IMG/VR virus record: IMGVR_UViG_2698536355_000015
Coordinates: 1-28,825 of that record
Direction: 5' to 3' (one strand)
DNA length: 28,825 nucleotides
From: a virus
Lineage: Duplodnaviria > Heunggongvirae > Uroviricota > Caudoviricetes
The notes below the pieces were generated by a model. That model ran no database searches. It had not been told where the DNA came from and worked only from the letters and a program-made list of their open reading frames with translations. The translations under genes and the position numbers were made by a program. Below are positions 10,226-26,763 of this stretch, piece after piece; position 1 is the first letter of the stretch; the number at the start of each line of letters is the position of its first letter.

Positions 10226-10627
10226 TTAAGGGTGAACTGAAAACCCGTCTGGCGATTTAGTAACGATCAGAGTCCTACCATCGGTAGTTTTTACTACTGC
10301 CAGATTCTCTGTAACATTCATCACTCCAGAAACATTTATACCATTATTTTCCAGATAATCATGAGTAACATTTATTGAGCCATAACATAAGTCATTATTA
10401 GTATAGAAGCCTTGGTATTCCTGCTTGCATTTATTTATCGACAAAAACTCATCCCTAAGAGAAAAAAACGCCATAACAAATGTGATAGCTAAAACAACTG
10501 AAATAACTCTGGCGATAGCTCTCCTTTTACTTTTCTCCTTCCTAAATGAAAGAAAAAGACAGATAAAGAATAAAATCAATAAAGCAATGCAACCTTGATA
10601 AATGCTCATAATCCACCAATCCACCAT
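10226..10627 (-). CDS. Small membrane protein of unknown function, AT-rich insertion in tail module (candidate superinfection-exclusion or host-interaction gene)
   Basis: ORF in a markedly AT-rich island between the tape measure and N-like genes; two N-terminal hydrophobic helices then a polar C-terminal domain of about 70 aa; followed by its own terminator. No recognisable homologue. Confidence 0.5.
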   Translation of the reverse strand: MVDWWIMSIYQGCIALLILFFICLFLSFRKEKSKRRAIARVISVVLAITFVMAFFSLRDEFLSINKCKQEYQGFYTNNDLCYGSINVTHDYLENNGINVSGVMNVTENLAVVKTTDGRTLIVTKSPDGFSVHP

Positions 10628-15025: not shown

Positions 15026-15571
15026 TTACTCCTGGAAGTTGAGGCTGATACCGGGCTGCGGCGTACCGTCGGGTACGACAATCGCGATATCGATGCCTTC
15101 AAGGGGAACCGCCTGAACAGGATAGAAGTCTTCCGGCCCCTGATAATGTTCGATGTCGATTTCAAGCAGCAGCTGGCCCATATGCGCTTCACCGTCGGCA
15201 TCGACATTGATGGTTGAGCGCACCTCGGCGTATTTCTGAATCTTCCGGGTCAGCTCATAGCTGTTGATGACCGCGCGCTCCACCTGATCCCGCAGCGCTT
15301 CCAGCGCCAGCTCTGCTTTCATCGCGCCATCATCTGTCGTATCGCCGTCGTACTCCTGTACCCGGCCAGTAATTCTGACGGTAGTGATAGTGGTAAACGC
15401 CGGGGTATTCCGCCCCAGCGACTTTTTTTGCTCAAACGGCGTCTGAACCAGCAGCGCCGGATACATGTCCGCCGATGTTGACCAGTCGCGGGGGGAATAC
15501 ACGCTGCTTCCGGCGTCCGTGGCGCCGGTCAGCGCCGTGACCACCATCTGTCGTACTGCTGCTGCATTCAT
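15026..15571 (-). CDS. Putative tail completion / neck protein
   Basis: 181 aa between the head-tail joining genes and the sheath gene; assignment by position only. Confidence 0.45.
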   Translation of the reverse strand: MNAAAVRQMVVTALTGATDAGSSVYSPRDWSTSADMYPALLVQTPFEQKKSLGRNTPAFTTITTVRITGRVQEYDGDTTDDGAMKAELALEALRDQVERAVINSYELTRKIQKYAEVRSTINVDADGEAHMGQLLLEIDIEHYQGPEDFYPVQAVPLEGIDIAIVVPDGTPQPGISLNFQE

Positions 15572-15927
15572 CGTTGTTTCACCACGTTAAGAACGAGTTT
15601 TGAGCCGCCATGGCTGTCCGGTTCGACGTTTGATACCACGAACAACTGATTCACAGGCTTTCCGCCGGCAGTTTTGATAAAGACACGATCGGACACCGCC
15701 GGGAGCGGTCTGCCGGAGTCGGTAAACTCCGCATCGCGCACCCCCAGTACCGGGCTCGTGGTATTTATCGCTGAATCACCGTCCAGATTTTCGGTTACCT
15801 GGGCGTAACCGCGGTCGAAAATGCCGTTTATCGGAAAGGGAGTACCGTTTCGGGGGCGGTACTCCTGCTCGTCGCCGAAGACACCATGCAGCGGACTCAG
15901 GAGGTGTAAATCCCAGTCCACGCCCAT
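15568..15927 (-). CDS. Putative head-tail joining protein (lambda FII position)
   Basis: Track ORF is 15568..16077, but the likely start is the internal Met (MGVDWDL...) at 15925-15927, giving 120 aa and no overlap with the upstream gene; lambda FII is 117 aa. Confidence 0.45.
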   Translation of the reverse strand: MGVDWDLHLLSPLHGVFGDEQEYRPRNGTPFPINGIFDRGYAQVTENLDGDSAINTTSPVLGVRDAEFTDSGRPLPAVSDRVFIKTAGGKPVNQLFVVSNVEPDSHGGSKLVLNVVKQR

Positions 15928-15931
15928 GGCA

Positions 15932-16234
15932 TTACCCCGAAGTGACAGTGACGGCGGGTTGTGCCGCCTGCGCGCGCTGACGCAGTACGTGGACGTCAGC
16001 AATAATGCCCGCCTGCAGCAGGCGCTCTGCATCCTGGCCGGTGACCGGAATAACGCTGTTTTCCCGGTAGACTTCACCGTTGTGGCGGACCATGTTGCCC
16101 TTCAGCACGACAAACTCCGGCCCATCATCCACGATGACATCATCATCCTCAGCGGAGGTATCTACTACCGGGACGATGCCTTCGGCGTTCAGATCATCGG
16201 CTGCAGGCGCTGGACTGTTTGTTGCTTTCGCCAT
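15932..16234 (-). CDS. Hypothetical head protein (lambda FI position; possible DNA-packaging/head completion factor)
   Basis: About 100 aa directly after the major capsid gene; start taken at the Met of MAKATNSP... to avoid overlap with the capsid gene. Assignment by synteny only. Confidence 0.4.
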   Translation of the reverse strand: MAKATNSPAPAADDLNAEGIVPVVDTSAEDDDVIVDDGPEFVVLKGNMVRHNGEVYRENSVIPVTGQDAERLLQAGIIADVHVLRQRAQAAQPAVTVTSG

Positions 16235-21146: not shown

Positions 21147-23276
21147 TTATTGCGGCAGGAGTTTTGACAGTCGCTTACGTTTGACGGGAGCAGGCTCTTC
21201 AATAACGGCCCCCGGCAATTCGTAGCTGATGGTTTCTTCCGGTCCGGCCGGTGCTGGCAGGAATTTGTCCGGGTTGGCTTCCAGGTTCGCGGCGCGTACG
21301 TTCAGCTTGAGTCCCATGTGCATCAGGCCACACAGCGCGGCGTAGCTATACACCCTACAGTCGAGCGCTTCGTTTGCCCTGCCGGGAATGGCTTCCCAGA
21401 CGCTGAAGCGCTGCCCGGCAATGACTTTGTACACAAGGCGCTCAGCCAGCAGCTGGTTGAAATAGCCGATATCCCGATCGTCAGGGAAATGCATATACCC
21501 CGGCGCGGCCATACCCGGCGCAGGTGGCTCGATATGCAGCCGCCCGCGGATCACATCCTTCGCGGAGTTGACCCCCAGAATGATCGGCCGGAACTGCGCC
21601 TTGCTCTTCGATGAAGGACGTTTGGTTGGCCAGACCGGATTTCGCTTCCCGCCCTGCGCCGATTCACCTTTGACAGCCCAGATTCGGCGATTGAGCCGCT
21701 CTTTCGCAAACTCGTAGACCTTCTGGGTATGGTGACCGCCGGAGTCATGGCAGGCCGCCATAATGGTCAGTCCCCTGCCATCGTTCCGGCGCCATATCTG
21801 CTTCAGGTACGCATCCAGACGCCGCCAGGGTTCATCCGTTTCCAGATCGCCGTAGATGACATCATGGGAGACAGACCAGGACTCCTCGTTTTTACCCCAG
21901 CCTGTCACTTCGATTTCGAAGCGATCATCCTGGGTATCAATCCCGGCCGTCAGCAGGGCAACACCATCCGGCACTTTCGCCGGAAAGACCTCTCGGCGAG
22001 CCAGCAGGATATCCACCGGCAACTGCTTGCCATGGTTTGGCCGGTGAGGCAGTCCCATCTGGGTATTCCACCAGGCCTGCTCTTTATCCGGGTCCCCCTT
22101 CGCTTTGATGTATTTCTCGGCAATATCGGACGGCTTGTCTTTCTGCCACGGGCTGAACAGTTTGGATGCCTGATACCCGGCATGGTGGTTATCGACGGCC
22201 TCCTGCCCGCACTCCGGACAGACAGCGCGCCAGACTGCATGACGTTCGGATTCCGACCATCGCCACACCTTTTCAACACTGCCCTCATCCTCTGTCCGCC
22301 AGGCCAGGTCATAATCCATCAGCGGGGAATGCCGCTCTCCGCAGCACTCGAACGGTCGGGTCTGGTGCCAGCGGATGGTCTGCAGCGCCCTTAGCCGCTC
22401 CCCCTCGGACCAGCCAGCGCCGCAGCACTCACAGTGGAGCATCGCTGATTTGGTCAGGTGTTTATCCCCGTCCTTCGGCCACTGAACGTGTTTAAAAAAG
22501 TCAGGGAACTGTCGGTGCCCACAGTGTGGACACACCACCGAGGCCCGGCGCTGGTCAGATTCGGCATAACTGTCGGCAATCCGGCTTTCGTCTTCCACCG
22601 TCGGCGAGCAGGCACGAACCGACAGCCAGGTGAGGCCAAACGTCGCCGTGCGCTCTTCCGCCAGCGCGATGGGGTCGCCTTCGCGGGTGATCGGGTATTT
22701 ATCCACCTCATCCGCCAGCAGGACACGAATCGGGCGGCGCGCGAGGTTATCGGGACTACCGGCGCCCGCCAGCGCCAGAAAGCCGCCGGTGAACGCCTTA
22801 TAGAGAATGGTTTCTTTCGAGCTCTTCTGCTTTGAGTCGCCGATGATTCTGCGCAGTGCCGGCGTCACCCTCACCAGCGGGCTGATGCGTTCCTTCGAGA
22901 ACTGCTCGGCCGCTTCCTCTTTCGGCTGCAGCAGCAGTATCGGGCAGGGATCGAGATGCGCGAAATAACCAAACAGGTTTTCCAGCAGCGCGGTTTTCAT
23001 CAGCTGAGTGCAGCACATCACCGTAATGATGTGAACGCCTGATTCTGTCGCCGCCAGCATCGGGCCGCGGGCGATCTCCACGGTGGACGTCTCCCAGTTG
23101 CCCGACGTACTCCCGGCTTCCTTCGCCAGCTTGCGATAATCATCAGCCCACTGCGGAACGCTGATCCTCGGCGGTGGCGTCCAGCCTTTTCGTACGCTCA
23201 GCTCAAGACGCTCAATCTTCAGCCGGGTTAAATTCTGGCTCTCCGAGGACTGAGATATGTTTGTGGACATGTTCAA
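21147..23276 (-). CDS. terL: Terminase large subunit (lambda gpA family)
   Basis: 709 aa; segment VPDGVALLTAGIDTQDDRFEIEVTGWGKNEESW matches lambda gpA VPDRVAYLTAGIDSQLDRYEMRVWGWGPGEESW; overlaps the end of the TerS gene. Confidence 0.9.
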   Translation of the reverse strand: MNMSTNISQSSESQNLTRLKIERLELSVRKGWTPPPRISVPQWADDYRKLAKEAGSTSGNWETSTVEIARGPMLAATESGVHIITVMCCTQLMKTALLENLFGYFAHLDPCPILLLQPKEEAAEQFSKERISPLVRVTPALRRIIGDSKQKSSKETILYKAFTGGFLALAGAGSPDNLARRPIRVLLADEVDKYPITREGDPIALAEERTATFGLTWLSVRACSPTVEDESRIADSYAESDQRRASVVCPHCGHRQFPDFFKHVQWPKDGDKHLTKSAMLHCECCGAGWSEGERLRALQTIRWHQTRPFECCGERHSPLMDYDLAWRTEDEGSVEKVWRWSESERHAVWRAVCPECGQEAVDNHHAGYQASKLFSPWQKDKPSDIAEKYIKAKGDPDKEQAWWNTQMGLPHRPNHGKQLPVDILLARREVFPAKVPDGVALLTAGIDTQDDRFEIEVTGWGKNEESWSVSHDVIYGDLETDEPWRRLDAYLKQIWRRNDGRGLTIMAACHDSGGHHTQKVYEFAKERLNRRIWAVKGESAQGGKRNPVWPTKRPSSKSKAQFRPIILGVNSAKDVIRGRLHIEPPAPGMAAPGYMHFPDDRDIGYFNQLLAERLVYKVIAGQRFSVWEAIPGRANEALDCRVYSYAALCGLMHMGLKLNVRAANLEANPDKFLPAPAGPEETISYELPGAVIEEPAPVKRKRLSKLLPQ

Positions 23277-23775
23277 TCAGCACCTCTGTCATCCTGTCCG
23301 CCGGTACATCCAGATCAGCAGCCATCAGCGGCGCCACCCTGGACGGCCAGTTGAGCCAGGCATCGCGCTGCTGGCGAAAGGCGTTGAAAAGAACCTCCTC
23401 GGCGACCACCAGCTCAACGAGCTGGCCACTGTCTTTTTCGTACTGCAGTTTGGCCTGCAGGGCCATATAGTTTTCGCGGATACGCGCCGCCTCCTCCCGC
23501 GAAAGGTCTGCGCCTTCGGTGAGCATTATCTGGCGTACGGTATTCTCGATGTCATCCCCGTCATCATCGCTGGCAACAGGGGTTTTCTTTTTCTTCGCGT
23601 TCGAAGCGCGCGGGTCTTTGCCATCGCGGTTTTTCTTCAGTGCGGCATCGCTGGCCTCAACATCAATCAGGTCCCCATCCATCACAATGAAGCGACCCGC
23701 TTTAATCCAGCGTCCGATGGTCTTGCGATCGACACCCGAATGTTGTGCGTACTGACTCTGGTTCATCGTGGTCAT
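23212..23775 (-). CDS. terS: Terminase small subunit (lambda Nu1-like)
   Basis: 187 aa immediately upstream of and overlapping TerL; N-terminal DNA-binding-type region (MNQSQYAQHSGVDRKTIGRWIKAG) resembles the Nu1 N-terminus. Confidence 0.7.
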   Translation of the reverse strand: MTTMNQSQYAQHSGVDRKTIGRWIKAGRFIVMDGDLIDVEASDAALKKNRDGKDPRASNAKKKKTPVASDDDGDDIENTVRQIMLTEGADLSREEAARIRENYMALQAKLQYEKDSGQLVELVVAEEVLFNAFRQQRDAWLNWPSRVAPLMAADLDVPADRMTEVLIEHVHKHISVLGEPEFNPAED

Positions 23776-23922
23776 GGGACATCACCTGGGACATTTTCAG
23801 GGGTGGGACATTTACCTGGGACATTTTTGCGATGTCCCACCGGAATGTCCCACTGGAATAAACAGGAATAGCCAGCACTGGTGCGGTGTCAGGCGCGATC
23901 GCCCCGGGTGGGACATGGGACA
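23775..23922. repeat. Array of about 8 copies of TGGGACAT in both orientations (putative cosB-like terminase-binding sites)
   Basis: Direct copies near 23775, 23787, 23804, 23817, 23909 and 23916; inverted copies (ATGTCCCA) near 23832 and 23845. The first copy overlaps the TerS start codon. Confidence 0.5.
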
Positions 23923-24016
23923 CAAATCTGAAACCTGTAGCTAGGAAAACACCGCGGCGCGCAATGCCCGTGCAATATGATCCCCTCAGGAAGGACCCAA
24001 ACCCACCGGGGCGGGG

Positions 24017-24370
24017 TCACAAGGCATGCTGGAAAAGAAAAATACGCGTGATGCTATCCTGACGGAAATGGAAACGGTCACGGGCAATGTTTAATAATCC
24101 ACCTTCCCCGAACCGCTCAAACTCTTCGGCGCAGCGTATGGCATCATCAAAAACATAAATATCGGGCGGCGGTAATGTGAAGCTTCTCACGTTGTCTGCA
24201 GGGAGAATACGGCCACCAAAGAGGCCTGGGCGGATATTATTCACATCACGCATCGTGGGTACGATTAATTGCACGTGCAAGCCAGCTGCTTCAAATCCAC
24301 TCGCTAATGCCAGTGCGGCGCTCGTCATTCCACTGTGGCGCTTAATAAGAATTGTTGCTGTGTTGCTCAT
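24017..24370 (-). CDS. Hypothetical protein (cos-proximal, unknown function)
   Basis: 117-aa ORF with GC content like the phage core, 7 nt downstream of the 227-aa gene; no recognisable family. Confidence 0.4.
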   Translation of the reverse strand: MSNTATILIKRHSGMTSAALALASGFEAAGLHVQLIVPTMRDVNNIRPGLFGGRILPADNVRSFTLPPPDIYVFDDAIRCAEEFERFGEGGLLNIARDRFHFRQDSITRIFLFQHAL

Positions 24371-24377
24371 GATGTCC

Positions 24378-25061
24378 TCATTTTGCTGTTCGGAGCGCCT
24401 CCGCTATCGCCTGATTCAACGCAGATGGTAGCAGCGCGTTCGCCATGGTGTTTGCCCGGTCCATATAGCCCAGCGAGGGTTTTACTGGCAGCGCGTTGCC
24501 AAAGCGGATAAGCAGTTTTGGCGCACGTTGTTTAACCTTCTCCCGACGCGTTCCATTCGGCGAGCGTTTCGCCCGCTTCTTCCCTTTCCTGGTCCTGGCC
24601 TTTCTGCGCTGCCAGACAGAGTTAACACCGCCGACATCACCGATGAAGGTGTTTGGCTTCGCCTTGAGCTGAGAAAGCTTATTACGCGGCAGGTTGCCGA
24701 ATTTATTCAGCTTAATGTCTTTGGGGTTGAGCAGAGCGCTACCGTTGAGCTTATGTTCGCCGCCAAACTCAAACGGATCGAGGTAATCCGCGGCAGTATC
24801 GCGGACGAACACTTTCGCGTGCAGACTGTTTTTTCGGGCAGCCACAGAGCCGACCGACTTCACGGTGAAAGGTGTGGGATTATCCAGATGGCGCTCGAAC
24901 GCCGTTTTCTGAGCCGTTTCTATCTGCCGAACGACCTTTGTCATCGCCTGCGCTGTAGCGAAGGGGATTTGCTTCTGAAGCTGCCGCAACTGACTGGAAA
25001 GGTCTTTAAGTGTTGCCATGACAGTCTCCGCAATTATTGCCATTATGATGGGGCTCCCCAT
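24378..25061 (-). CDS. Hypothetical protein with highly basic Lys/Arg-rich segment (possible nucleic-acid-binding protein)
   Basis: 227-aa ORF containing WQRRKARTRKGKKRAKRSPNGTRREKVKQRAPK; no recognisable family. Confidence 0.45.
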   Translation of the reverse strand: MGSPIIMAIIAETVMATLKDLSSQLRQLQKQIPFATAQAMTKVVRQIETAQKTAFERHLDNPTPFTVKSVGSVAARKNSLHAKVFVRDTAADYLDPFEFGGEHKLNGSALLNPKDIKLNKFGNLPRNKLSQLKAKPNTFIGDVGGVNSVWQRRKARTRKGKKRAKRSPNGTRREKVKQRAPKLLIRFGNALPVKPSLGYMDRANTMANALLPSALNQAIAEALRTAK

Positions 25062-25118
25062 GATGATGGCAACAAAAAACCGCCCGAAGGCGGCTTGTGC
25101 CGTTATTGCTGGTCAATC

Positions 25119-25346
25119 TCACTCTTCAGATGAGCCTTCTTCCAACGCATCCTGGATAGCATCCGCAAGTTGTGAAATATTATCTTTAGCAAAAACCAAA
25201 TCGTTATACATCGATCCTCCTGAAGCTGCAGAATCAGAAGATGCAGAGGCTTTGGCTATTTCTAGTGCAGCCTTAACAGCTAACAGGCGTTGGTGTTCTT
25301 CTTTTGTCGCTCCTAATTCAGGTGCTCCATAATAATTTTCAAGCAT
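25119..25346 (-). CDS. Small hypothetical protein (AT-rich island)
   Basis: 75-aa ORF in a locally AT-rich segment with an AGGGGA Shine-Dalgarno about 8 nt upstream of the ATG; acidic, Ala/Ser-rich. Confidence 0.35.
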   Translation of the reverse strand: MLENYYGAPELGATKEEHQRLLAVKAALEIAKASASSDSAASGGSMYNDLVFAKDNISQLADAIQDALEEGSSEE

Positions 25347-25463
25347 TTTATATCCCCTATATCCGCAGCCAATCTGCGGTTATCTATAAGTTGGGGATTA
25401 AGTAATAATTTCAACCCTAACAAAACATTATCGAAACCCATCAGAGATGAGCTTCTGTAATGC

Positions 25464-25760
25464 TTACTCTTCAACCACTGCACCTTCCGGCAGTTCTACG
25501 CAACCAAAAACAGGCATACCCGGTGAACGGTAATCTTCCACTGCCACCAATTGTGATTCTGAATACCAGCACTCTGTAGCGCACTTGTCCGCTGCCTGGT
25601 AATAAACAAAATACTGGTTATCACCTGTTACATGTTGAGATCGGGCCTGAACCTCACCAAACTCATCACTGATACGCAGGCTCACCAATTGGCCCAGGCA
25701 GAATTTAAAATCTTTTGCTACAGGCAGGATTGCGCAGCCGTTTTGTTCTTTGTCTATCAT
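25464..25760 (-). CDS. Hypothetical Cys-containing protein downstream of Rz
   Basis: 98-aa ORF with six Cys residues; no recognisable family. Confidence 0.4.
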   Translation of the reverse strand: MIDKEQNGCAILPVAKDFKFCLGQLVSLRISDEFGEVQARSQHVTGDNQYFVYYQAADKCATECWYSESQLVAVEDYRSPGMPVFGCVELPEGAVVEE

Positions 25761-25801
25761 TCACTCCCGTGTTGTTAAAAAGCTCGCTTTTGCGAGGATC
25801 G

Positions 25802-26281
25802 TTATTTGAGGCACTGCGTGGTGATGTATTCCTGCAGGCCGCTCACTTGTTTGGTGATAACGCTAATTCGCTCTCTGAGGGTGAAATAATCCCGTTGAGC
25901 GGCGTCAGTAAGTCGGGGGCCGGTTGCATCATCCACGCCGGTGGCGCCGGAGGTATTACCCTTGGGGCAGGTGGCGTTGATGTGCAGCCCACACTTGCCA
26001 GAACGAACACACTGCTGAAGAGCATCAAGCTGCTTTTTCGCATCAGCTAACTCCTTTGTGTATTTGGCATCCAGCGCAGCGACGTCGCGCTGCCGGGTCT
26101 GCATGTCGGTTATGGTGGCGTTCGCCAGCGTCAGGGCGGATGTGGCTTTATCGCGCTGGTCTTTGTAGGTGATGGCGTTGTCGCGGTAGTGGTTCACTGC
26201 CAGTAACAGCACGCCGATAACTGCAAATACCAGAATCGGCAGCCATAGCTTTTTCAGCGCTGCGAAGATGGCTTCACTCAT
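25802..26281 (-). CDS. Rz: Inner-membrane spanin Rz (i-spanin)
   Basis: Strong identity to lambda Rz ([13 protein letters not shown]...[24 protein letters not shown]...RDYFTLRER); N-terminal transmembrane helix. Confidence 0.85.
25843..26043 (-). CDS. Rz1: Outer-membrane lipoprotein spanin Rz1 (o-spanin), embedded in Rz in the +1 frame
   Basis: Lipobox (LASVGC) and Pro-rich segment [14 protein letters not shown]...[11 protein letters not shown], matching lambda Rz1 (PPPPPAWIMQPPPD...[11 protein letters not shown]); lies entirely within Rz. Confidence 0.8.
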
Positions 26282-26763
26282 GGTTTAGACTCGCTCACCT
26301 GACCGCCAGCGGCTTTGAATACCGCGATCAGATTATCCGCTTTGTGCTCAAACTGGCCGTAGCCCGCACCGGGGAGTGAGGCCCATATATTGCTGCAGCG
26401 GTCGATAGCCTGTCGAATGTCTCCGCTGTCGATTAACGGCAGCGCGCCACGCTCCTTAATTTGCTGAAGCGCCACTGCGTCCTGGCTGGCCGGGGAGAAG
26501 TCTTTCAGACCAAGCTGCACCCGGTATGCATCCCACCATTTGGACAGCAGCTGGTAGCGGCCGGCAGCCGTTGATTTCAGTGTTGGGCTAAGCGTGACCA
26601 GCTTTCGGGGGTGATCTGAATAATCGGTAAACAGGGAACCGCCGACAATAACGTCGTATCCGTGGTTATTGGTCTTCTGCCTGCCGTTATCGGTTCCTTC
26701 AGACCAGGCCAGCATATCGAGAAATGCTTTTCGTTGAGGACTCATCGTCTGCATCAGCGCCAC
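26278..26763 (-). CDS. R: Endolysin, lambda R-like lytic transglycosylase
   Basis: Near-identical over most of its length to lambda R ([47 protein letters not shown]...[22 protein letters not shown]). Confidence 0.9.

What the first reader, a model, noticed from the sequence alone, without database searches (positions are those of the whole stretch)
24017..25760. Four uncharacterised genes between the lysis cassette and cos, including a highly basic 227-aa protein and an AT-rich small gene
Lambdoid phages carry accessory genes such as bor in the Rz-to-cos interval. This window has four co-oriented ORFs of 98, 75, 227 and 117 aa there, none of which I can place in a known family. The 227-aa protein has an extremely basic Lys/Arg-rich segment typical of nucleic-acid-binding or virion-internal proteins. 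The 75-aa gene lies in an AT-rich patch with a good Shine-Dalgarno and a hairpin (CCGCAG-CCAAT-CTGCGG near 25363-25379) just upstream. The 98-aa protein has six cysteines. Adjacency to cos also allows a packaging-accessory role.
Basis: partly seen in the sequence, partly recalled or inferred. Interest (0 to 1): 0.5.

Follow-up and report, generated by a model that had tools for sequence, protein, structure and literature searches.

The report
Tail-completion gene plus cargo genes by cos
Of the four unannotated phage genes between the lysis genes and the DNA-packaging site, one is a conserved virion part (a lambda gpZ-type tail completion protein) and three are swappable passenger genes of unknown function; a widespread, apparently undescribed RNA hairpin sits among them.

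Summary
The four ORFs exist as described, all on the minus strand in late-operon order: Rz, orf98, orf75, orf227, orf117, cos, terS. They are not equivalent.

- **orf75** is a 406-nt AT-rich cassette with its own intrinsic terminator, absent from a close relative.
- **orf117** is a near-orphan single-gene insertion between the TCP stop codon and cos.
- **orf98** belongs to the phiP27 L33 family. It has five cysteines, not six, and none is conserved. The functions of orf75, orf117 and orf98 remain unknown.

A new observation is a 38-nt hairpin directly after orf98 (25426-25463). It recurs in phi80, phiP27, Fels-1, many Klebsiella prophages and at least 719 E. coli genomes. Its stem co-varies, it is strand-specific, and it has no Rfam match.

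The gene finding is ordinary. The hairpin is worth following up.

The parts
25464..25760 (-). orf98: small acidic protein (pI 4.4) of the phrog_1935 / phiP27 L33 family. Variable cargo gene, function unknown.
   Evidence: phrog_1935 at E 3.8e-45. 53 protein clusters, all labelled hypothetical. Homologues in phiP27 (L33) and Yersinia phage YpM_44, also between lysis genes and cos/terS. Present in only 4 of the 57 TCP-anchored genome loci. dN/dS 0.04 against L065. Five non-conserved Cys. SD GGGAG lies 4-5 nt before the ATG.
25426..25463 (-). Conserved 38-nt hairpin, GCAUUACAG-[10-bp variable stem, 3-nt loop]-CGAUAAUG. It starts on the base after the orf98 stop codon. Candidate late-transcript RNA element.
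   Evidence: CM R1 gives a single window hit of 54.4 bits, E 1.5e-15; the next best is 11.8 bits. At least 119 IMG/VR stretches match the flanks; 108 of 120 matches fold into the hairpin, with 69 distinct sequences. In 51 distinct sequences, 99.5% of cells are paired, 6 pairs change on both sides, and 0/500 shuffles reach the score. U-G is the commonest pair at one position (45/51). The reverse strand scores no more than 31 bits. No Rfam match.
25020..25425 (-). 406-nt AT-rich insertion cassette (GC 0.43) carrying a leader, orf75 and a terminator. Absent from the close relative L065.
   Evidence: blastn shows window 25797-25426 aligning to L065 2632-3005 and window 25019-24457 aligning to L065 3026-3585. 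So 406 nt in the window replace about 20 nt in L065. GC.
25363..25379 (-). Leader hairpin CCGCAG-AUUGG-CUGCGG, just 5' of the orf75 ribosome-binding site.
   Evidence: An analogous hairpin with a different sequence (CCTGTC...GACAGG) sits at the same place in L014, and a weaker one in L019. It is not evident in L122, L068 or L082.
25119..25346 (-). orf75: small acidic (pI 4.3) protein of family phrog_5901. Cargo gene, function unknown.
   Evidence: phrog_5901 at E 1.7e-18. Homologue in Serratia phage OS31, again between Rz and terS. In L014 and L019 the homologue lies directly upstream of the TCP gene. Across six independent loci the unit has the same architecture.
25067..25096 (-). Intrinsic terminator (AAGCCGCC-UUCG-GGCGGUUU + UUUGUU) 22 nt after the orf75 stop codon.
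   Evidence: orf75-family genes are followed by a hairpin plus T-run in 5 of 6 loci.
24378..25019 (-). Tail completion protein (TCP), 213 aa, of the gpZ / HK97 gp10 superfamily with a basic beta insert. The mechanical ORF extends to 25061 (227 aa).
24017..24370 (-). orf117: near-orphan cargo gene inserted between the TCP stop codon and cos. Function unknown.
   Evidence: Only 4 clusters among 5.8 billion proteins. No Pfam, PHROG, NCBIfam or PADLOC hit. Against L008, window 24395-24012 (384 nt) is an insertion. Absent from all 57 genome loci. The 64%-identical homologue P0124 occupies the same last-gene-before-cos slot. pN 0.26 against pS 0.92. SD GAGGA overlaps the TCP stop codon.
23938..24001 (-). 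Conserved cos block containing the cosN cohesive-end 12-mer GCATTGCGCGCC (23956-23967).
   Evidence: Exact match to the BZS1 cohesive end (PMC7556043). The same 12-mer lies between TCP and terS in 34 of 44 loci, often about 50 nt after the TCP stop. This block is about 80% identical across many genera.
23775..23922 (.). Array of eight TGTCCCA / TGGGACA heptamers directly upstream of the terS start codon. Candidate cosB-like small-terminase binding sites.
   Evidence: 10 copies in the window against 3.5 expected, with 0/100 shuffles reaching 10. Eight of the ten lie in these 148 bp.
23212..23775 (-). Small terminase subunit (context; marks the end of the interval).
   Evidence: phrog_57 at 6e-36. 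Followed by a GpA-type terL, gpW and portal.

Best explanation
The Rz-to-cos interval is a mosaic of one core virion gene and three passenger genes. All are read as part of the late transcript that runs from the lysis cassette across the joined cos into the terminase and head genes.

**The core gene (shown).** The 213-aa basic protein is a tail completion protein homologous in fold to 80alpha gp51 and related by profile to lambda gpZ.

**How it most likely works (inferred from the 80alpha structure and lambda genetics).**
- A single copy sits in the lumen of the neck.
- Its net-basic beta insert and loop face and cap the end of the packaged DNA. This holds the DNA ready for ejection.
- Loss of the protein should give normal-looking but poorly infectious particles.

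**Gene position (shown) and its possible reason (inference).** In this lineage the TCP gene lies not in the neck/tail module but immediately upstream of cosN, terS and terL. One possible reason is co-inheritance of the end-capping protein with the cos/terminase unit that creates that end.

**The passenger genes (shown to be variable; functions unknown).**
- orf98, orf75 and orf117 are small translated cargo genes of unknown function.
- orf75 is a moron-like unit with its own leader and intrinsic terminator.
- orf117 is an insertion into the short TCP-cos spacer.

**The hairpin (shown to be conserved; function inferred).** A conserved RNA hairpin follows orf98. It most likely acts on the late mRNA as a processing, stability or translation element between cistrons.
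For: **TCP identity**
- PHROG hits and a reciprocal gpZ cross-hit.
- Pfam Minor_tail_Z hits in 7 of 70 diverse family members.
- hhalign against gpZ aligns the N-terminal 70 columns at E 1.2e-3.
- The predicted topology is a long N-terminal helix, a beta-rich middle and a long C-terminal helix. PMC11661146 describes this for gp51, with gpZ carrying an extra beta domain.
- Lambda gpZ also carries a run of basic residues, SRRRRRKKGQR.
- The loop is net basic across the family, with median K+R 7 against D+E 1.

**No other TCP candidate in the structural module**
- gpW, an FII-like protein, an unrelated 181-aa protein and DUF2635 precede the sheath.
- hhalign of the family against the 181-aa protein gives probability 0.1%.

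**Core status and position**
- 2204 clusters at 50% identity.
- terS and terL follow the gene in every locus with enough flank.
- The cos 12-mer lies about 50 nt downstream in many loci.
- The gene is at the far right end of the cos genomes of the RcCronus group and R4C (PMC8601537).
- PMC7556043 already remarked on this position.

**Cargo status**
- Indel mapping and presence/absence across loci.
- Near-orphan status of orf117.
- phiNP and BZS1 carry different genes in the same slots: a sialyltransferase and a pol III theta homologue.

**Coding status**.

**orf75 terminator and cassette architecture**.
Against: - The window protein itself does not reach any Pfam or NCBIfam model.
- A profile search against PDB sequences finds nothing.
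- hhalign against a single gpZ sequence gives only 19% probability.
- Foldseek against the PDB ranks the TCP hit with a non-significant E-value, although TM normalised to the target is 0.60.
- The gene is not in the canonical FII-Z-U position.
- Gel-band mass spectrometry of BZS1 virions did not detect the homologue p72. It also missed the portal, so its sensitivity was low.
- No virion location, copy number or DNA binding has been measured for any member of this family.
- The strict linkage to cos would fit a packaging role equally well.
- No convincing sigma-70 promoter was found for orf75, so 'moron' in the strict sense of an autonomous transcription unit is unproven.
Confidence: 0.75

Rival explanations
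1. The 213-aa basic protein is a DNA-packaging accessory factor rather than a tail part. It would be a cos-end or terminase cofactor acting at cosQ/cosN, broadly in the manner of lambda gpFI or IHF-like helpers. That would explain why its gene never separates from cos, terS and terL.
For: - Linkage to cos/terS/terL held in all 44 analysable loci, and at the right end of several cos phage genomes.
- Strongly basic, pI 11.2.
- Not detected in BZS1 virions.
- The BZS1 authors themselves suspected a non-structural role.
Against: - Its one strong fold match is a solved tail completion protein.
- Profile links run to gpZ, phrog_27 and Minor_tail_Z.
- No similarity to any packaging protein was found in Pfam, PHROGs or the PDB.
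- The structural module otherwise lacks a TCP.
- The BZS1 mass spectrometry also missed the portal.
Confidence: 0.12
2. All four ORFs are lysogenic-conversion or accessory ('moron') genes like lambda bor, dispensable for phage growth.
For: - This interval is a known cargo slot. phiNP, BZS1, phi80 and phiP27 carry unrelated genes here.
- orf75 and orf117 are insertions.
Against: - The 213-aa gene is present and syntenic in every relative examined. It spans Entero-, Chromo-, Pseudomonas- and Burkholderiaceae-type hosts and alphaproteobacterial phages.
- It is under strong purifying selection.
- It has a virion-protein fold.
Confidence: 0.05
3. orf75 and/or orf117 are not real genes. On this view the AT-rich patch is a non-coding regulatory or terminator region, and orf117 is a chance ORF in the spacer before cos.
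For: - No Pfam, NCBIfam or PADLOC hits.
- orf117 has almost no homologues.
- The ORFs are small.
Against: - orf75 matches phrog_5901 at E 1.7e-18. It recurs at 43-54% identity with a conserved leader-gene-terminator architecture in six loci.
- orf117 keeps an intact full-length frame at 64% identity, with pN well below pS. It has a strong SD coupled to the TCP stop codon.
- Close relatives lack the whole 384-nt segment rather than carrying a degraded version.
Confidence: 0.07

Closest known systems
Staphylococcus phage 80alpha gp51, tail completion protein (PDB 9mu2 chain P; PMC11661146)
   Different: - Only 11% sequence identity.
- The window protein is about twice as long, with a roughly 110-residue beta-rich insert that includes a Lys/Arg loop.
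- 80alpha packages by headful and caps a blunt end non-specifically. This phage has a 12-nt cohesive end.
- gp51 is encoded in the neck module, whereas this gene lies next to cos.
Lambda gpZ (Pfam PF06763 Minor_tail_Z; phrog_27)
   Same: - Reciprocal weak profile hits.
- Family members hit PF06763.
- Similar size (192 against 213 aa).
- An inserted beta domain, as stated in PMC11661146.
- A run of basic residues.
- Cos-packaging phage with gpW and FII head completion proteins, as here.
   Different: - The window protein itself is below every Pfam threshold.
- The confident alignment covers only the N-terminal 70 residues.
- Lambda Z sits between FII and U, whereas this gene is separated from the tail genes by cos and the whole head module.
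- The tail here is contractile and Mu-like, not lambda-like.
phiBZS1_p72 (Serratia phage vB_SspM_BZS1) and its homologues in Citrobacter phage phiNP, Dinoroseobacter phage R4C and the RcCronus group (phrog_1924)
   Same: True orthologues at 69-80% identity for BZS1 and phiNP, in the same position upstream of terS/cos. The conserved position was already noted in PMC7556043.
   Different: Those records call it 'hypothetical' or 'minor tail protein' with no structural assignment. The BZS1 authors leaned towards a non-structural role. The neighbouring cargo genes differ.
Morons of lambdoid phages (concept from the HK97/HK022 comparison; lambda bor, phi80 rha). Cited from my own knowledge of that literature.
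   Same: orf75 is a compositionally distinct (AT-rich) single-gene insertion between two genes that are adjacent in a relative, and it carries its own terminator. orf117 is likewise a clean insertion.
   Different: No convincing promoter was found for orf75, and no terminator follows orf117. Expression from the prophage is untested.
Phage intercistronic RNase III sites and 3' stabilising hairpins (for example T7 R1.1). Functional analogy only, from my own knowledge.
   Same: For the 38-nt element: an intercistronic hairpin on the sense strand of a long late transcript, about 17 stacked steps with a conserved 2x2 internal loop, placed immediately after stop codons.
   Different: No sequence relationship and no cleavage data. 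The flanks and apex are sequence-conserved while the stem co-varies. The element recurs as 'gene-hairpin' units, which also resembles cassette boundaries.

Membership tests
Tail completion protein (TCP) superfamily: lambda gpZ / HK97 gp10 / SPP1 gp16.1 / 80alpha gp51 | Core fold of a long N-terminal helix, a beta hairpin/extended loop and a long C-terminal helix | tested here: met
Tail completion protein (TCP) superfamily: lambda gpZ / HK97 gp10 / SPP1 gp16.1 / 80alpha gp51 | Sequence-profile membership (Pfam PF06763 Minor_tail_Z or PF04883 HK97-gp10_like; phrog_27) | tested here: inconclusive
   The window protein has no Pfam or NCBIfam hit and hits phrog_27 at E 8.4e-5. 7 of 70 family members hit PF06763, best 2.4e-7. 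gpZ hits phrog_1924 at 1.9e-4. hhalign against a single gpZ sequence gives E 1.2e-3 and probability 19%.
Tail completion protein (TCP) superfamily: lambda gpZ / HK97 gp10 / SPP1 gp16.1 / 80alpha gp51 | Gene located between the head-tail joining gene (FII / gp7 type) and the tail terminator gene | tested here: not met
   The gene lies between the lysis cassette and cos, about 8 kb and the whole head module away from the FII-like gene at 15568-16077. This is a usual position, not a structural requirement of the family.
Tail completion protein (TCP) superfamily: lambda gpZ / HK97 gp10 / SPP1 gp16.1 / 80alpha gp51 | The phage otherwise lacks a TCP, so this protein fills the vacant role | tested here: met
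   Between the major capsid and sheath genes there are only DUF7210, an FII-like protein, a 181-aa phrog_6774 protein and DUF2635. The 181-aa protein is unrelated to the family.
Tail completion protein (TCP) superfamily: lambda gpZ / HK97 gp10 / SPP1 gp16.1 / 80alpha gp51 | Virion component in the neck lumen contacting the DNA end and the tape-measure N-termini; loss lowers infectivity of complete particles | not testable with these tools
   The only indirect data are gel-band MS of BZS1 virions, which did not list p72 but also missed the portal.
Moron (autonomous accessory transcription unit in a late operon) | Single-gene insertion between genes that are adjacent in related phages | tested here: met
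   The orf75 cassette is 406 nt against about 20 nt in L065. orf117 is 384 nt against about 20 nt in L008.
Moron (autonomous accessory transcription unit in a late operon) | Base composition different from the neighbouring genes | tested here: met
   GC is 0.42-0.43 for orf75 and its cassette, and 0.49 for orf117. The TCP, terS and Rz genes have 0.55-0.56.
Moron (autonomous accessory transcription unit in a late operon) | Own promoter upstream and own terminator downstream | tested here: inconclusive
   A terminator is present after orf75 and after orf75-family genes in 5 of 6 loci. The only promoter-like match overlaps the start codon. orf117 has neither a promoter nor a terminator.
Rfam RNA families (for the 38-nt hairpin) | A match to any curated covariance model | tested here: not met
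   cmscan of 23600-26400 at E<=1 gives no hit at 25426-25463.

The most novel reading that the evidence does not exclude
The 38-nt hairpin GCAUUACAG-[co-varying 10-bp stem]-CGAUAAUG at 25426-25463 may be an undescribed, widespread structured RNA element of temperate enterobacterial phage late operons.

What is seen:
- It sits directly after the stop codons of many unrelated small genes in the lysis-to-terminase interval.
- It often lies 19-22 nt ahead of the next gene (terS, TCP, HNH or a cargo gene).
- It can recur as 'gene-hairpin' units.

The novel reading has two parts:
1. The hairpin is a dedicated intercistronic signal. It could be a processing or stability site, or the binding site of a phage or host protein. 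It would set expression of packaging genes and cargo genes and mark the boundaries at which cargo cassettes are exchanged.
2. The fixed TCP-cos-terminase linkage, together with a 12-nt cohesive end that stays invariant across genera, may mean that this TCP recognises the cohesive end in a sequence-specific way.
Probability: 0.4. Interest if true: 0.65.

Novelty: new member of a known kind. Interest (0 to 1): 0.4.

Why it matters
**For annotation.** A protein family of about 2,200 clusters, now labelled 'hypothetical' or loosely 'minor tail protein' in prophages of Enterobacterales and other Proteobacteria, can be named a gpZ-type tail completion protein. Its odd location explains why neck-module-based classifiers find no TCP in these phages.

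**For phage biology.**
- The strict TCP-cos-terminase linkage offers a concrete way to test whether TCPs of cos phages recognise their cohesive end.
- phiNP and BZS1 are cultivable and could serve for that test.

**For prophage cargo.**
- The interval is shown to accept clean single-gene insertions at two defined points: after the hairpin, and between the TCP stop codon and cos.
- This helps separate core genes from cargo genes in related prophages.

**For the hairpin.** If it is functional, it would be a new RNA motif present in hundreds of E. coli and Klebsiella prophages and in classic phages such as phi80.

Tried and rejected
- **First AF2 run.** A shallow alignment of 21 sequences at 72% identity or more gave pLDDT 46 and was unusable. 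It was replaced by a 70-sequence diverse alignment.
- **PDB sequence searches.** Profiles of the TCP family found nothing meaningful. The orf98 profile gave only a chromodomain hit at E 0.15, which is not significant.
- **Family searches.** Pfam, NCBIfam and PADLOC gave nothing for any of the four proteins. No defence or anti-defence assignment can be made.
- **Cysteine-rich or zinc-binding idea for orf98.** Rejected, because there are five Cys and none is conserved.
- **Second TCP or paralogue.** The 181-aa neck-module protein is unrelated.
- **Own promoter for orf75.** The only consensus match overlaps the ATG, so this stays open.
It is only partly conserved among orf75-family loci.
- **Nucleotide-level relatives.** None cover the interval in the phage or E. 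coli collections; only Rz and the cos/terS ends match.
- **The search for related loci on viral contigs with the diverse alignment.** Failed for lack of a conserved stretch.
- **BZS1 virion proteomics.** Uninformative for a low-copy protein.
- **Hairpin as a chance pattern.** Rejected. 108 of 120 flank matches also fold, the stem co-varies, and the element is strand-specific.
- **Hairpin as an intrinsic terminator.** Rejected as a general role, because a T-run follows it in the window but not in L065, L014 or L019.
- **Literature search.** A search for the motif string together with related terms found nothing.
Full report
**Observation**

The window's right part is a late operon on the minus strand. 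In order it carries:
- two holin-like genes
- an endolysin
- Rz/Rz1 (26281-25802)
- the four ORFs in question
- a 240-nt gap
- terS (23775-23212)
- a GpA-type terL, gpW, a portal and an S49 protease
- a lambda-like head module and a Mu-like contractile tail

The four ORFs are at the coordinates given. The basic segment, the AT-rich patch and the hairpin at 25363-25379 are all real.

Two small corrections apply.
- orf98 has five cysteines, none conserved.
- The 227-aa ORF is best read as 213 aa from ATG 25019. That start has a GGAG Shine-Dalgarno, homologues begin there, and the gene call on the identical NCBI contig agrees.

**Where cos is**

The related Serratia phage BZS1 has a 12-nt cohesive end, GCATTGCGCGCC. 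It was predicted with PhageTerm and checked by sequencing across the prophage cos junction (PMC7556043). That 12-mer occurs once in the window, exactly, at 23956-23967, 50 nt after the orf117 stop. It also lies between the 213-aa gene and terS in 34 of 44 related loci. Between it and the terS ATG sit eight copies of TGTCCCA/TGGGACA within 148 bp. This arrangement resembles cosB. [quoted passage not shown]

**The 213-aa protein**

Sequence evidence:
- It hits phrog_1924 ('minor tail protein', 4e-61) and, weakly, phrog_27 ('tail completion or Neck1', 8.4e-5).
- Lambda gpZ hits phrog_27 at 3e-69 and phrog_1924 at 1.9e-4.
- An exhaustive profile search finds 2204 clusters at 50% identity.
- Among 70 diverse members, seven hit Pfam Minor_tail_Z, best 2.4e-7.

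Structural evidence:
- With that alignment AlphaFold2 gives pLDDT 91.2. An earlier shallow alignment had failed.
- Foldseek against BFVD returns proteins named HK97 gp10 family or tail component.

The 80alpha paper (PMC11661146) shows that this TCP is a monomer inside the neck. It caps the DNA end and forms a sheet and helix bundle with the tape-measure N-termini. The paper equates it with lambda gpZ, HK97 gp10 and SPP1 gp16.1, and says gpZ has an extra beta domain. The model here shows the same layout: two long terminal helices around a beta-rich insert. Like gpZ, the protein carries a run of basic residues. The corresponding loop is net basic across the family and extreme in this lineage.

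The neck module of the window contains gpW, an FII-like protein, an unrelated 181-aa protein and DUF2635, but no other TCP candidate. I therefore assign the protein as the phage's tail completion protein. The mechanism is inferred by homology, not shown.

**Its position**

In 57 genome loci from Enterobacterales, Chromobacterium, Aquitalea, Pseudomonas and Trinickia, the gene is followed by terS and terL in every locus with enough flank (44 loci). The gap ranges from 113 to about 1470 nt. In many loci the cos 12-mer is about 50 nt after its stop codon. In the cos siphophages RcCronus, RcRhea, RcSaxon and R4C it is the last gene at the right end (PMC8601537). The BZS1 authors had already noticed this conserved position and the similarity to minor tail proteins. 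They suspected a non-structural role.

So the family and its position are not new. The structural assignment to the TCP superfamily is the addition here. A packaging-accessory role is the main rival. I rate it low, because every homology signal points to the neck.

**The other three genes**

Nucleotide alignment with close relatives maps two clean insertions.
- Window 25425-25020 (406 nt) holds a leader, orf75 and an intrinsic terminator. It replaces about 20 nt in L065.
- Window 24395-24012 (384 nt) is orf117. It replaces about 20 nt in L008, where the TCP stop codon abuts the cos block.

orf75:
- It belongs to phrog_5901 and is AT-rich.
- It recurs in six loci, including Serratia phage OS31, with the same architecture of hairpin element, leader, gene and terminator.

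orf117:
- It has only four homologous clusters in 5.8 billion proteins.
- One homologue occupies the same slot before cos.
- It shows pN well below pS and has a strong, coupled SD.

orf98:
- It belongs to phrog_1935, the phiP27 L33 family, and is under strong purifying selection.
- It is patchily distributed and also lies between lysis genes and cos in phiP27.

phiNP and BZS1 carry quite different genes in these slots. None of the three has a Pfam, NCBIfam, PADLOC or PDB-sequence match. Their functions remain unknown.

**An unexpected element**

Immediately after the orf98 stop codon lies GCATTACAGAAGCTCATCTCTGATGGGTTTCGATAATG (25463-25426, minus strand).

Distribution:
- The same flanks around a different, complementary 10-bp stem were seen in 14 held loci.
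Of 120 matches, 108 also form the hairpin, with 69 distinct sequences. By my own rough estimate, chance matches to the flanks alone could number in the tens, but they would not fold.
- BLAST with six variants finds the element in 72 phage records, including phi80 (right after rha), phiP27, cdtI, Fels-1, mEp390 and ZF40. It also finds it in at least 719 of 5426 complete E. coli genomes, mostly in unannotated intergenic DNA.
- There is no Rfam match.

Structure and strand:
- On 51 distinct sequences, 99.5% of cells pair and six pairs change on both sides. No shuffle reaches the observed score, and slid controls collapse. These sequences were pre-filtered for six basal pairs, which inflates the pairing percentage but not the covariation.
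- G-U pairs are frequent on this strand, and U-G is the commonest pair at one position. The covariance model scores the sense strand at 45-65 bits against no more than 31 for the antisense strand. This points to an RNA on the late transcript.

Context:
- The element begins within 12 nt of a same-strand stop codon in 66 of 91 contexts, against 14 of 91 for convergent ORFs.
- The genes upstream belong to more than 20 families.
- The genes downstream include three terS families, the TCP, the orf75 family and HNH. They often start 19-22 nt after the element.
- Some phages carry two or three copies, each after a small gene.
- The orf75 cassette is inserted directly 3' of the element.

I could not determine its function. 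An intercistronic processing or stability signal is my leading guess, and a cassette-boundary role is an alternative.

**Verdict**

One gene is a conserved tail completion protein in an unusual but previously noted position. Three are genuine variable cargo genes of unknown function. As a gene finding this is a new member of a known kind, and of modest interest. The conserved hairpin and the TCP-cos linkage are the parts worth further work.

Noticed in passing
window 25426-25463 (minus strand): A conserved 38-nt hairpin, GCAUUACAG-[10-bp co-varying stem]-CGAUAAUG, lies directly after the orf98 stop codon. It is widespread in temperate enterobacterial phages (phi80, phiP27, Fels-1, cdtI, mEp390, ZF40, Klebsiella prophages) and occurs in at least 719 E. 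coli genomes. It is strand-specific and has no Rfam match.
   Followed up: yes
window 23775-23922: Eight TGTCCCA/TGGGACA heptamers, in both orientations, are packed into 148 bp immediately upstream of the terS start codon. The whole window has 10 copies against 3.5 expected. They are probably small-terminase (cosB-like) binding sites.
   Followed up: partly
window 23938-24001; loci L008-L064: The cohesive-end 12-mer GCATTGCGCGCC is identical in 34 of 44 related prophages from Enterobacterales, Chromobacterium, Pseudomonas and Trinickia. In those same loci TCP identity falls to 40% and terL identity to 27-69%. The DNA end is more conserved than the proteins that handle it.
   Followed up: partly
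window 27920-28825 (+ strand): A 301-aa ORF runs opposite to the late operon, between the Q antiterminator gene (just beyond the window end, seen in L001) and the holins. It lies in markedly AT-rich DNA (GC 0.34-0.42). It has no Pfam or PADLOC hit and is probably another cargo gene.
   Followed up: partly
window 10226-10627 (minus strand): A 133-aa hydrophobic ORF lies between the tape-measure gene and the next tail gene. It has no PHROG hit and only weak Pfam hits to membrane-protein families, which is odd inside a tail module.
   Followed up: no
L189 (Klebsiella phage ST147-VIM1phi7.2) 2501-3461; also L009, L117, L122: Two or three copies of the hairpin occur within about 1 kb, each following a small gene, just upstream of HNH and terS. 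The layout of repeated 'gene-hairpin' units looks like a cassette array.
   Followed up: partly
L001, L014, L068, L082, L122 (orf75-family loci): orf75-family genes are followed by their own hairpin plus T-run terminator in 5 of 6 loci, with two tandem terminators in L014. Some (L082, L122) are also preceded by a terminator. They behave as insulated units inside late operons.
   Followed up: partly
L014 (NZ_JBQPOM010000071.1): This contig is titled Vagococcus sp. WN89Y. It carries a prophage whose terS and terL are 91-92% identical to the window's enterobacterial-type genes. That suggests a mislabelled or contaminated assembly.
   Followed up: no
window 15026-15571 (minus strand): The 181-aa protein just before DUF2635 and the sheath gene (phrog_6774, unknown function) has phage homologues only in phiNP, BZS1 and Acetobacter phage phiAP1. 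These three phages also carry the TCP-next-to-cos gene. The deposited records annotate 'ATP-binding tail sheath protein' and 'head-tail joining protein' under the match. Judging by its position, it may be the tail terminator.
   Followed up: partly
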